A stretch of DNA of 23,450 nt from a virus (taxonomy: Duplodnaviria > Heunggongvirae > Uroviricota > Caudoviricetes). Shown here one piece after another: positions 4,336-5,864 of the stretch. Where the stretch lies: IMG/VR virus record IMGVR_UViG_2541047903_000002; one strand, 5' to 3'. Position numbers and translations under genes: made by a program. The notes beneath the pieces are model-generated. The model worked only from the letters and a program-made list of their open reading frames with translations. It had not been told where the DNA came from and did no database searches. Numbering within the stretch: the first letter of the stretch is position 1; the number at the start of each line of letters is the position of its first letter.

Positions 4336-4508
4336 ATCACTCTCTTTTTCCCTGAAGCATGGCAGCGTGGCAGGCATCCTCTACGCCCTTAACTGCATCT
4401 GCGCAGTAGTTATAGCGATTGCATTCCACTAACTTCTGCCTGAGATTTTCAATTGCTTGCGCGACATCAGCCTGTATTTGAAGTGGTCAACAAAAACTGG
4501 CCACCGAG

Positions 4509-5327
4509 TTAGAGTTTTTTCCAGTATCGATTTTCCGATTCGTTTGGTGGTAACCCACCATTATATTCGTGCGGTCTTAGTGCGCTGTAATATCCAACGA
4601 TATAGTCCGTTATTGCGTGAGCTGCATCGCTGAAGCTTACATAGCCCGTCGCCGGCACCCATTCGTTCTTCAGACTCCTGAAGAAGCGCTCCATTGGGCT
4701 GTTATCCCAGCAGTTTCCACGCCGACTCATACTCTGCCTGATCCGGTATCTCCACAGTAACTGCCGGAACTGCCTGCTCGTATAATGACTGCCTTGATCG
4801 CTGTGGAACATCACCCCGACGGGCTTACCACGGGTTTCCCATGCCATTTCCAGTGCTTTCATGGTAAGCCTGCTGTCCGGCGAGAACGACATGGCCCAGC
4901 CCACTGGTTTTCTTGCGAACAGGTCGAGAACAACGGCGAGGTACGCCCAGCGCTTACCCGTCCAGATATAGGTCACATCACCGCACCACACCTGATTTGG
5001 CTCGGTCACGGCGAACTGCCGTTCAAGGTAGTTAGGGATAGCAACATGTTCATGACCACCACGTTTATACCGGTAAGTCGGCTGCTGACAGCTGACCAGC
5101 CCCAGCTCTTTCATGAGTCTGCCAGCAAGCCAGCGCCCCATCTGGTAGCCTCTCTGGGTTGCCATTGTGGCGATGCTTCTTGCTCCGGCAGAGCCGTGGC
5201 TGATGCCATGCAGTTCAAGTACCTGGCTGCGTAATACAGCCCGTCTGCCGTCTGGCTTTTCAGGACGGTTTTTCCAGTATTTGTAGCTGCTGCGATGGAC
5301 CCCGAACACATGGCAGAGAGTGGCCAC
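4509..5327 (-). CDS. IS3-family transposase OrfB (DDE catalytic part; made as an OrfAB fusion by -1 frameshift)
   Basis: 272-aa ORF with typical IS3-family OrfB sequence; its frame stays open upstream to the slippery site. Confidence 0.85.
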
Positions 5328-5353
5328 AGGATAACGCGCCCTGAGTTTCCCGA

Positions 5354-5656
5354 TTATCGAGAACTGTTCAGGGAGTCTGACATCAAGAGCGCGGTAGCCT
5401 TTTTTAATATTTCATTTTCCATTTCAATACGTTGTAGCTTTTTCCTGAGCTCACGGATTTCAATTTGTTCCGGGGTAATAGGGGAGGCTTTTGGTGTTTT
5501 TCCCTGCCGCTCATCACGTAATTGTTTCACCCATCGCGTCATTGTGGAAAGGCCGACATCCATAGCGCTGGCTGCATCTGCCACGGTGTAATTCTGGTCA
5601 ACGACCAGTTGAGCGGATTCGCGTTTAAACTCTGCGCTGAAATTTCTTTTTTTCAT
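5354..5656 (-). CDS. IS911-like OrfA (HTH regulator)
   Basis: [53 protein letters not shown]... matches the IS911 OrfA/InsN type; ends just after the slippery heptamer. Confidence 0.85.
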
Positions 5657-5864
5657 TATGGCACCTGTGTTGTTCTGAGGTGAGCATATCACCTCTGTTC
5701 AGGTGGCCAAATTCAGTAAACCACTTCACTTAAATAGTGGATTGCGGTAGTAAAGATTGTGCCTGTCTTTTAACCACATCAGGCTCGGTGGTTCTCGTGT
5801 ACCCCTACAACGAGAAATCGGATAAACTCTATTCACCCCTACAGAGAGCAAAAGAGAAACGCCG

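What the first reader, a model, noticed from the sequence alone, without database searches (positions are those of the whole stretch)
4337..5864. IS911-like element inserted in the early-left operon between the sieB-like gene and downstream genes
A roughly 1250-bp IS3-family element (termini TGAAGTGG/CCACTTCA, OrfA/OrfB with A-AAA-AAG frameshift site) sits in the pL-driven operon. An open frame with no stops runs from the IS junction at 4478 down to a TGA overlapping the ATG at 4335, which could be the 3' remnant of a disrupted gene. The flanking triplets read as ATT and CTT, so I cannot confirm a clean 3-bp duplication or the pre-insertion frame. The insertion is expected to be polar on the distal left-operon genes, including xis. 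The left operon contains no exo/bet/gam-like genes, so material may have been lost here.
Basis: partly seen in the sequence, partly recalled or inferred. Interest (0 to 1): 0.45.

Follow-up and report, generated by a model that had tools for sequence, protein, structure and literature searches.

The report
IS element marking a prophage deletion
A known 1,250-bp insertion sequence (ISEc52, a close relative of IS911) sits where 5.4 kb of a well-known E. coli lambda-like prophage, including its recombination genes, has been deleted; this is an ordinary step in prophage decay.

Summary
Window 4479..5728 is an intact 1,250-bp IS3-family element. It is 100% identical to copies annotated ISEc52 and about 94% identical to a copy annotated IS911. 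It has 27-nt terminal inverted repeats (TGAAGTGG...CCACTTCA), orfA/orfB and an A-AAA-AAG slip site at 5399..5405. Its flanks are ATT and CTT, so there is no 3-bp duplication.

It is not a simple insertion. The window is the icd-integrated lambdoid prophage of B2 E. coli (CFT073, ABU 83972, Nissle 1917, ATCC 25922). At least 14 IS-free complete genomes and phage PhiR57_1 match both flanks at 100% and hold 5,399 bp between them. That block carries 125 codons of a 171-aa ORF, ea22, traR, three small ORFs, exo, bet, gam, kil, cIII, ea10, ral and an orf28-like ORF. The IS replaces all of it.

In related prophages, six simple ISEc52 insertions all have perfect 3-bp repeats. Five copies at deletion joints, including this one, have none.

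The cause is most likely insertion followed by an adjacent deletion, or recombination between two IS copies. The sequence cannot separate these. The predicted polarity on xis is doubtful, because N and nutL look intact, and it hardly matters because IS10 splits int. This is ordinary and of low interest.

The parts
4479..5728 (-). ISEc52 (IS3 family, IS911-like), 1,250 bp, apparently intact. The transposase reads in the same direction as pL transcription.
   Evidence: 100% identity over 1,250 bp to copies annotated ISEc52, including the Nissle 1917 prophage copy. About 94% identity to a copy annotated IS911.
5702..5728 (-). Left inverted repeat of the IS (IRL, orfA-proximal end). This end faces sieB.
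   Evidence: Inverted-repeat pair I1, 27 nt, 78% complementary.
4479..4505 (-). Right inverted repeat of the IS (IRR, orfB-distal end). This end faces the ORF remnant.
   Evidence: Inverted-repeat pair I1.
5354..5656 (-). orfA, 100 aa, helix-turn-helix protein.
   Evidence: Pfam HTH_Tnp_1, E 5.9e-14. Start and stop mapped.
5399..5405 (-). A-AAA-AAG programmed -1 frameshift heptamer.
   Evidence: The fusion made at this site gives a 382-aa OrfAB that matches NCBIfam transpos_IS3 over positions 1-368 of 369.
4509..5327 (-). orfB frame (DDE/rve catalytic domain). It is expressed as OrfAB, 5656..4509, with the -1 shift.
   Evidence: Pfam rve E 1e-31 and rve_3 E 2.6e-11.
4476..4478 (.). Left deletion breakpoint (flank ATT). 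Window 4478 corresponds to clone D i14 locus L001 position 4826, inside an ORF.
   Evidence: Exact flank mapping.
5729..5731 (.). Right deletion breakpoint (flank CTT). Window 5729 corresponds to L001 position 10226. It is intergenic, 7 bp upstream of an orf28-like ORF and 136 bp upstream of sieB.
4337..4477 (-). 3' remnant (46 codons plus stop) of a 171-aa early-left ORF annotated 'EaA protein' in phage PhiR57_1. It has no start codon of its own.
   Evidence: Translation. Identical to the C-terminus of the PhiR57_1 CDS at L009 7094..7609 and to the 202-aa mechanical ORF in L001. No Pfam match.
5729..5864 (.). Retained 136-bp spacer upstream of sieB. The native sieB upstream region is kept.
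   Evidence: Window 5729..5770 was found as an exact match at L001 10226, the 5729..6500 query is 100% identical to clone D i14 and about 30 other genomes, and the flank as a whole aligns to L001 at 99.96%.
5865..6446 (+). sieB, superinfection exclusion protein B, intact (context).
   Evidence: Pfam SieB, E 9.1e-22. Annotated as such in relatives.
6463..6735 (-). N antiterminator gene (context; relevant to the polarity claim).
   Evidence: Pfam N_peptide, E 1.5e-32.
6834..6878 (-). nutL-like site: boxA GCTCTTTAA (6878..6870) and a boxB-like hairpin TGGCTGAAAAGCCA (6847..6834).
   Evidence: Read from the sequence. The function is inferred.

Best explanation
An intact ISEc52 copy marks the joint of a 5,399-bp deletion in the early-left (pL) operon of the icd-integrated lambdoid prophage of B2 E. 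coli.

Most likely sequence of events:
1. ISEc52 made a simple insertion 136 bp upstream of sieB, just upstream of the orf28-like/ral genes. Its transposase genes lay in the pL sense, and the insertion made a CTT repeat.
2. A transposase-mediated adjacent deletion followed. This could be intramolecular attack by the IS end, or by an IR-IR junction of a transient IS dimer. It removed everything from the IS's IRR end leftwards to a point inside a 171-aa ORF.

The result is one IS copy, the original sieB-side junction and a new left junction, with no target duplication.

Consequences:
- Shown: loss of exo, bet, gam, kil, cIII, ea10, ral, ea22, traR and several small ORFs.
- Inferred: the prophage lacks Red recombination, Kil toxicity and the cIII and Ral functions. 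With int split by IS10, it cannot excise by itself. The immunity and exclusion block is untouched: sieB, N, two candidate defence genes and cI.
- Inferred: after induction, N-antiterminated pL transcripts probably read through the IS into the remaining distal genes.

I put about 0.9 on the shared claim that this is an IS-bounded deletion. The confidence given here, 0.5, is for the specific adjacent-deletion route.
For: - Both flanks are 100% identical to IS-free relatives that hold exactly 5,399 bp between them. This holds for clone D i14, for at least 14 complete genomes by coordinate arithmetic, and for phage PhiR57_1.
- The products of 12 annotated genes in the missing block have no tblastn hit in the window.
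- The flanks are ATT and CTT, with no duplication.
- Internal control: six simple insertions of the same IS in this prophage family have perfect 3-bp repeats (CAT, ATT, GAG, TAG, CCA, AAT). Four other copies at deletion joints have none (Nissle TAT/CAG, GN02323 AAC/CAT, C25 TTT/ATT, ATCC 43896 TCT/CAC).
- No complete E. coli genome has the two flanks joined without an IS.
- Simple ISEc52 insertions do occur close to sieB: 34 bp upstream of its start codon, and 355 and 368 bp into the gene. This makes the sieB side the more plausible original site.
- In the long-term evolution experiment, all 14 deletion-associated events involved IS150, another IS3-family element. All lacked target duplications and all were explained as insertion followed by adjacent deletion (PMC11708052).
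- IS3-family elements, IS911 among them, form IS dimers. For IS30, which uses the same copy-out-paste-in strategy, the same paper shows that the IR-IR junctions of such dimers make deletions starting at an IR edge, and it suggests the pathway may apply to the IS3-family elements as well (PMC9333248).
- ISEc52 has been reported inserted in gnd in a laboratory Nissle lineage (bioRxiv 10.64898/2026.07.28.741313).
Against: - No intermediate was found. That would be the IS at the CTT site with a CTT repeat and the 5.4 kb intact. It was absent from 5,426 complete E. coli genomes and from exact junction scans of the genome, metagenome and viral contig collections.
- The final sequence is exactly what recombination between two direct IS copies would also leave.
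- All IS copies are identical, so there is no chimeric signature to read.
- Which junction is the original one is inferred only from where other insertions cluster.
- Read-through by N-modified polymerase was not measured.
Confidence: 0.5

Rival explanations
1. Homologous recombination between two directly oriented ISEc52 copies. One had inserted in the 171-aa ORF (ATT repeat) and one upstream of sieB (CTT repeat). The crossover deleted the 5.4 kb and one IS copy.
For: It leaves exactly ATT|IS|CTT. Multi-copy states exist in this same prophage arm: ATCC 25922 has two copies and C25 has three direct copies with an IS-flanked tandem duplication, which is the signature of IS x IS unequal crossing-over. 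Recombination between IS copies is a common cause of missing target duplications (PMC11708052).
Against: It needs two independent insertions in direct orientation within 5.4 kb plus a crossover. No genome with an IS at either site was found. In the only systematic IS3-family data read here, all 14 IS-associated deletions were explained as insertion followed by adjacent deletion; the authors report no two-copy recombination among them.
Confidence: 0.35
2. One-step event. The IS inserted into a DNA break formed during a deletion, without transposase-made staggered cuts, as proposed for some IS movements that lack target duplications.
For: Ngan et al. 2024 propose this for an IS5 movement with a large deletion in E. 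coli C (PMC11708052). It would also leave no duplication.
Against: It was proposed for other IS families, and the authors call it tentative. Their own IS3-family (IS150) cases were all explained as two-step. Nothing in this sequence calls for it.
Confidence: 0.05
3. Assembly artefact. The real genome has two ISEc52 copies flanking the 5.4 kb, and the assembler collapsed them into one.
For: Multicopy 1.25-kb repeats are a classic cause of collapsed assemblies. The junction pair is unique among all collections searched.
Against: The same contig also runs through a complete IS10, another multicopy repeat, with a perfect 9-bp duplication. This argues for long-read or finished sequence. Equivalent IS-bounded deletions are present in independently finished genomes: 18 complete Nissle 1917 or Nissle-derived assemblies, GN02323, C25 and ATCC 43896.
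Confidence: 0.05
4. Simple insertion into a prophage variant that already lacked the 5.4 kb, with later decay of the 3-bp repeat.
For: Two of the three flank bases agree (ATT versus CTT).
Against: No complete genome has the two flanks joined without an IS. Both triplets are the native sequence at their respective sites in IS-free relatives, and the flanks are otherwise 100% identical to them, so there is no sign of point-mutation decay.
Confidence: 0.03

Closest known systems
ISEc52 (IS3 family; ISfinder name as used by NCBI's PGAP annotation)
   Same: 100% nucleotide identity over all 1,250 bp to many copies annotated ISEc52, including the copy in the Nissle 1917 prophage. An ISfinder query by others identified a Nissle IS as ISEc52.
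   Different: Nothing in the element itself differs. This copy lacks the 3-bp target duplication that simple insertions of the element show.
IS911 (Shigella dysenteriae; the model IS3-family element)
   Same: Same length and the same TGAAGTGG...CCACTTCA tips. Same orfA/orfB layout with an A-AAA-AAG -1 frameshift. Sibling copies make a 3-bp duplication.
   Different: About 94% nucleotide identity to a plasmid copy annotated 'IS911 family'. By ISfinder's naming convention, as I recall it, that makes it a separate, closely related IS. The reference IS911 sequence itself was not available to align.
Prophage 3 of E. coli Nissle 1917 (defective lambdoid prophage at icd; Bury et al. 2018, PMC5987069)
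   Same: It is the same prophage. Window 5841..13128 is 100% identical to the Nissle locus, and window 1..428 also matches at 100%. An identical ISEc52 copy in the same orientation lies next to sieB at a deletion joint without a duplication. The paper describes prophage 3 as shorter than lambda, not inducible, and a source of immunity to lambdoid phages through its repressor.
   Different: The Nissle deletion is larger, at 8,224 bp. It runs from inside int to 23 bp upstream of sieB and also removes xis and the distal early-left genes. The window keeps those genes, keeps 136 bp upstream of sieB, and has int broken by IS10 instead.
IS150 adjacent deletions in the E. coli long-term evolution experiment (Ngan et al. 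2024, PMC11708052)
   Same: An IS3-family element sits at the edge of a deletion of 14 bp to 49 kb with no target duplication, while simple insertions of the same element have 3-bp repeats.
   Different: There the order of events was observed in time-resolved samples. Here it is inferred.
Escherichia phage PhiR57_1 (PV340572.1, host recorded as ECOR13) and the IS-free prophage of clone D i14 and ABU 83972
   Same: 100% identity to both flanks. They give the pre-deletion gene order: int, xis..., 171-aa ORF, ea22, traR, orf61/63/60a, exo, bet, gam, kil, cIII, ea10, ral, sieB, N.
   Different: They have no IS10 in int, no ISEc52, and the 5,399 bp is present.

Membership tests
IS3 family insertion sequence | Length about 1.2-1.5 kb with imperfect terminal inverted repeats ending 5'-TG...CA-3' | tested here: met
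   1,250 bp. 27-nt inverted repeats, 78% complementary, TGAAGTGG...CCACTTCA.
IS3 family insertion sequence | Two consecutive, partly overlapping ORFs (orfA in phase 0, orfB in phase -1) joined by programmed -1 frameshifting at an A6G-type slippery heptamer | tested here: met
   A-AAA-AAG at 5405..5399. The conceptual -1 fusion gives a 382-aa protein matching NCBIfam NF033516 transpos_IS3 at 380.6 bits (cut-off 160). That frameshifting actually occurs was not tested.
IS3 family insertion sequence | OrfA with a helix-turn-helix domain; OrfB with a DDE (rve) catalytic core | tested here: met
   Pfam HTH_Tnp_1 E 5.9e-14 and rve E 1e-31.
IS3 family insertion sequence | Short (3-4 bp) direct target duplication flanking the element | tested here: not met
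   ATT versus CTT for this copy. Six sibling copies at simple insertion sites have perfect 3-bp repeats. The missing repeat therefore reflects the deletion and does not exclude membership.
ISEc52 specifically | Near-identity to the ISEc52 reference in ISfinder | tested here: inconclusive
   100% identity to copies that PGAP names ISEc52 and to the Nissle 1917 prophage copy. ISfinder itself could not be queried here. An independent ISfinder query for a Nissle copy returned ISEc52.
IS911 specifically | At least about 95% nucleotide identity to IS911 (ISfinder isoform convention, from memory) | tested here: not met
   94.2% identity over 1,250 bp to a plasmid copy annotated 'IS3-like element IS911 family transposase'.
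Lambdoid early-left (pL) operon | N antiterminator with a nutL site downstream of pL, next to the cI immunity region; sieB antisense within the operon | tested here: met
   Pfam N_peptide and SieB hits. A LexA-family repressor is annotated in 100%-identical relatives. boxA and boxB-like motifs are present. Promoter activity was not tested.
Lambdoid early-left (pL) operon | Red recombination module (exo, bet, gam) with kil and cIII | tested here: not met
   Absent from the window (tblastn gave no hits). Present in IS-free relatives exactly between the two flanks.
IS-mediated adjacent deletion | One IS junction identical to that of a pre-existing simple insertion, with the other junction new | not testable with these tools
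   No progenitor carrying the IS at either site was found in any collection. Relatives or the history of the source strain would be needed.

The most novel reading that the evidence does not exclude
The short stretch around sieB in lambdoid prophages may be a preferred landing zone for ISEc52, and ISEc52-bounded deletions starting there may be a recurrent, selected route to a grounded prophage. Such deletions strip the exo-bet-gam-kil-cIII-ral block, and sometimes int and xis, while keeping the sieB/N/defence/cI block.

At least eight distinct ISEc52 junctions lie between about 145 bp upstream of the sieB start codon and 368 bp into the gene, across the window and six complete-genome lineages. 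Five independent IS-bounded deletions remove the Red/kil block: the window, Nissle 1917, C25, GN02323 and ATCC 43896.
Probability: 0.3. Interest if true: 0.4.

Novelty: already known. Interest (0 to 1): 0.15.

Why it matters
It matters mainly for annotation. This prophage should be described as defective: the Red/kil/cIII/ral block is deleted and int is split by IS10. It should not be described as a lambdoid that naturally lacks recombination genes, and the IS should not be recorded as a simple insertion.

It adds one more allele to a series of ISEc52-bounded deletions in the same prophage, one that has been studied in the probiotic strain Nissle 1917 as a source of immunity to lambdoid phages (PMC5987069). 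If the clustering of insertions round sieB proves real, it would give a small, concrete example of how one IS repeatedly converts an active prophage into a fixed immunity and defence cassette.

Tried and rejected
- **Same junctions elsewhere.** Chimeric flank-plus-IS queries against 5,426 complete E. coli genomes found no record with either junction. Exact 38- and 39-mers of both junctions had no match in the genome, metagenome or viral contig collections. The source strain and any progenitor remain unknown.
- **Natural IS-free deletion variant.** A query of the left flank joined to the right flank found no genome covering 80% or more. Rejected.
- **Targeted insertion next to an IR-like sequence**, the IS911 target switch of Loot et al. 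2002, cited. The right flank has only an AGTGG pentamer 6 bp from the IS tip. An AACCACATCA motif resembling the IS end (about 5772..5781) lies 43 bp or more from any junction. Seven target sites plus the Nissle right junction aligned by eye show no consensus. Not supported.
- **Orientation bias of insertions near sieB.** A query with the IS end reversed found no copy in the opposite orientation within the 136 bp upstream of sieB. It did find one inside sieB (GN02323) and one near ral (strain 100181). Overall the count is about 6 to 2, which is not significant.
- **AT-richness as a cause of clustering.** The sieB region is only mildly AT-rich, at 0.40-0.41 G+C against 0.45-0.50 nearby. Not convincing.
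- **Rfam scan of the whole window.** It found only RNA-OUT of IS10, and no annotated frameshift element for this IS.
- **Pfam on the truncated ORF and its remnant.** No family matched.
- **Adhya et al. 1974 (PMC388494).** The paper was not held. Its content is cited from my own knowledge.
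Full report
**1. What is at the coordinates**

Window 4479..5728 is a 1,250-bp element. It is bounded by 27-nt imperfect inverted repeats, TGAAGTGGTCAACAAAAACTGGCCACC and GGTGGCCAAATTCAGTAAACCACTTCA, which are 78% complementary.

On the minus strand it encodes two proteins:
- OrfA, 5656..5354, 100 aa, Pfam HTH_Tnp_1 (E 5.9e-14).
- An orfB frame reaching 4509, with Pfam rve (E 1e-31) and rve_3.

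The heptamer A-AAA-AAG lies at 5405..5399. A conceptual -1 shift there gives a 382-aa OrfAB. This matches NCBIfam 'IS3 family transposase' over essentially the whole model (380.6 bits, cut-off 160).

The element is 100% identical over its full length to many E. coli copies that NCBI annotates as 'IS3-like element ISEc52 family transposase'; 940 records have a best match of at least 99%. A plasmid copy annotated 'IS911 family' is 94.2% identical. 'IS911-like' is therefore fair, and ISEc52 is the better name.

The flanking triplets are ATT (4476..4478) and CTT (5729..5731).

**2. Where the window comes from**

The flanks place the window in the lambdoid prophage integrated next to icd in phylogroup-B2 E. 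coli. Hosts include CFT073, ABU 83972, clone D i2/i14, Nissle 1917 and ATCC 25922.

Compared with the IS-free copy in clone D i14 (locus L001), the window matches as follows:

| Window | L001 | Identity |
|---|---|---|
| 1..944 | 1687..2630 | 100% |
| 2274..4478 | 2622..4826 | 100% |
| 5729 onward | 10226 onward | 99.96% (one gap; the first 42 bases are an exact match) |

There are two differences from L001:
- An IS10 at 945..2273 (1,329 bp) splits the integrase gene. It has a perfect 9-bp duplication, CGCTTAATA, and an Rfam RNA-OUT hit.
- L001 4827..10225, which is 5,399 bp, is missing. The ISEc52 copy sits exactly in its place.

The same 5,399-bp spacing between flanks that are 100% identical to the window's is seen in at least 14 complete genomes. 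This follows from the coordinates. Examples are strains 1105, D8, UPEC 26-1, ABU 83972, DA61218, UPEC_U013, SCU-112, GW-AmxH19, strain 9, CFSAN067215, CU39ES-1, CU532-9 and EcPF14. The same holds for Escherichia phage PhiR57_1 (PV340572.1).

**3. What was lost**

According to the annotation of clone D i14 and PhiR57_1, the missing block holds:
- the first 125 codons of a 171-aa ORF ('EaA protein' in PhiR57_1)
- an ea22-like fragment and an ea22-like gene
- a traR/dksA-family gene
- three small ORFs (orf61, orf63/DUF1382, orf60a/DUF1317)
- exo, bet, gam, kil and cIII
- ea10 (DUF2528) and ral
- a 28-aa orf28-like ORF

None of the 12 annotated products tested has a tblastn match anywhere in the window.

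It meets a stop three codons inside the IS, so it has no start of its own. Its TGA (4339..4337) is one base away from the ATG (4335..4333) of the next 69-aa gene and does not overlap it.

The right breakpoint is intergenic. It lies 7 bp upstream of the orf28-like start and 136 bp upstream of sieB.

**4. Why the duplication is missing: an internal control**

Related prophages carry many copies of the same IS.

Six copies are simple insertions, and each has a perfect 3-bp repeat:

| Strain | Position | Repeat |
|---|---|---|
| ATCC 25922 | in DUF1382 | CAT |
| ATCC 25922 | 34 bp upstream of sieB | ATT |
| C25 | in ea22 | GAG |
| AHB22 | 355 bp into sieB | TAG |
| 19AR0253 | 368 bp into sieB | CCA |
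| 100181 | between ea10 and ral | AAT |

Five copies sit at deletion joints, and none has a repeat:

| Strain | Flanks | Deletion |
|---|---|---|
| this window | ATT/CTT | 5,399 bp |
| Nissle 1917 | TAT/CAG | 8,224 bp, from inside int to 23 bp upstream of sieB |
| GN02323 | AAC/CAT | 4,911 bp, from ea22 into sieB |
| C25, first copy | TTT/ATT | DUF1382 to 34 bp upstream of sieB |
| ATCC 43896 (a different lambdoid, at ybhC) | TCT/CAC | from int to about 145 bp upstream of sieB |

No complete genome has the window's two flanks joined without an IS. The mismatched triplets are therefore the signature of an IS-bounded deletion. They are not a decayed duplication.

**5. Mechanism**

Two routes leave exactly this sequence:
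- (a) A simple insertion followed by a transposase-mediated adjacent deletion.
- (b) Homologous recombination between two direct copies.

I favour (a), at roughly 0.5 against 0.35, for these reasons:
- In the only systematic IS3-family data I could read, all 14 deletion-associated IS150 events in the long-term evolution experiment lacked duplications and were explained as insertion followed by adjacent deletion (PMC11708052).
- IS3-family elements, including IS911, form IS dimers. For IS30, which shares the copy-out-paste-in strategy, the IR-IR junctions of such dimers make deletions that start at an IR edge, and the authors suggest the same network may apply to the IS3-family elements (PMC9333248).
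- Route (b) needs two prior insertions.

However, this arm does accumulate several copies. ATCC 25922 has two. C25 has three, with an IS-flanked tandem duplication. Route (b) therefore stays a serious rival.

I take the sieB-side junction as the original one only because simple insertions cluster there. This is inference.

Minor rivals are a one-step insertion into a break and an assembly collapse of two copies. The collapse is unlikely for two reasons. The contig also crosses a complete IS10, and equivalent structures exist in independently finished genomes.

No progenitor or identical allele was found anywhere.

**6. Consequences, and the polarity claim**

*Shown:* the Red recombination genes and kil, cIII, ea10 and ral are gone, and int is split by IS10. 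The following are identical to the Nissle 1917 prophage over 7.3 kb:
- sieB
- N
- two genes in the rexAB position
- cI
- the right arm as far as the locus fetched

Bury et al. describe that prophage as non-inducible and as a source of immunity to lambdoid phages (PMC5987069).

*Inferred:* this prophage cannot excise by itself and has lost its host-killing Kil function.

- N (Pfam N_peptide, E 1.5e-32) is intact, and a nutL-like boxA (6878..6870) and boxB-like hairpin (6847..6834) are present.
- The IS is co-oriented with pL transcription.
- The consensus scan predicts no intrinsic terminator on the sense strand inside the IS.
- From my own knowledge, N-modified transcription from pL overrides the polarity of IS insertions (Adhya, Gottesman and de Crombrugghe 1974). 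I could see only the title, in the reference list of PMC4693257. The paper itself was not held.

Only transcript measurements can settle this.

**7. Comparison with what is known, and novelty**

The element is a known IS, the prophage is known, and IS-bounded deletions without target duplications are textbook behaviour. What is new is only the allele: this pair of junctions is absent from every collection searched.

The most novel reading not excluded concerns the region around sieB. At least eight distinct ISEc52 junctions fall between about 145 bp upstream of the sieB start codon and 368 bp into the gene. Five independent IS-bounded deletions remove the Red/kil block but keep the immunity and exclusion block. 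This could reflect target preference, selection for grounding the prophage, or both. The evidence for it is weak:
- I found these cases by looking at this spot.
- The orientation bias is about 6 to 2, which is not significant.
- No target consensus or IR-like target explains the clustering.
- The region is only mildly AT-rich.

I give this reading about 0.3.

**8. Verdict**

The element and the ORF remnant are real, and material, including exo, bet and gam, has indeed been lost at this spot. 'Insertion' should read 'IS at a 5.4-kb deletion joint', and the polarity claim is doubtful. Interest is low, at 0.15.

Noticed in passing
window 945..2273 (direct repeats at 936..944 and 2274..2282): A complete IS10 (1,329 bp) splits the integrase gene. 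Its transposase is on the + strand at 1052..2260, and RNA-OUT is found by Rfam at 990..1059 on the minus strand. It has a perfect 9-bp duplication, CGCTTAATA. The int fragments are 1..944 and 2274..2481. xis (2471..2707, minus strand) is intact.
   Followed up: yes
window 7172..7924 (-) and 7921..8478 (-): Two genes lie in the rexAB position, between pL/N and cI. One has Pfam DUF1828 and the other a weak DUF6978 match. They match the PADLOC candidate defence system PDC-M24, component B (E 4.7e-10) and component A (E 4.8e-4). A terminator-like hairpin follows them at 7168..7147 on the minus strand.
   Followed up: partly
window about 5720..6235 and the equivalent positions in loci L003, L004, L005, L006, L007, L008 and L010: ISEc52 junctions cluster round sieB in other genomes. 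Upstream of the sieB start codon they lie at 136 bp (window), about 145 bp (ATCC 43896), 34 bp (ATCC 25922 and C25) and 23 bp (Nissle). Inside the gene they lie at 176 bp (GN02323, opposite orientation), 355 bp (AHB22) and 368 bp (19AR0253). Five of these lineages carry IS-bounded deletions of the exo-ral block. This may be a hot spot or the result of selection. It has not been tested against a proper null.
   Followed up: partly
L004 about 7393..7400 and L006 about 8922..8929: Two ISEc52 copies have the tip variant CCACAACA where CCACTTCA is usual. In ATCC 43896 it is at the orfA-proximal end. In the third C25 copy it is at the other end, and that copy still has a clean GAG duplication. The same two-base change at opposite ends in unrelated copies is unexplained.
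   Followed up: no
L006 (E. coli C25, NZ_CP127314.1) 3736..10171: Three direct ISEc52 copies bracket a tandem duplication of the hyp-traR-ea22' segment. This is an example of IS x IS unequal crossing-over in the same prophage arm.
   Followed up: partly
window 6713..6895 (-): Relatives carry an annotated 60-aa 'hypothetical protein' that overlaps the nutL-like boxA/boxB and the 5' end of N. It is probably a spurious gene call over the N leader.
   Followed up: no
window 14778..15920 (-) and the late region: A 380-aa minus-strand ORF lies between the Q-like antiterminator and the lysis genes, where relatives carry an annotated ompC-like porin gene. Relatives also carry an iss (serum survival) gene after the lysis cassette. 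Both look like cargo genes of the prophage.
   Followed up: no
window 5801..5817 and 5835..5851: An imperfect 17-nt direct repeat, ACCCCTACAACGAGAAA / ACCCCTACAGAGAGCAA (82%), lies just upstream of sieB. The ATCC 25922 and Nissle IS junctions fall in or next to its second copy. Its function is unknown.
   Followed up: no
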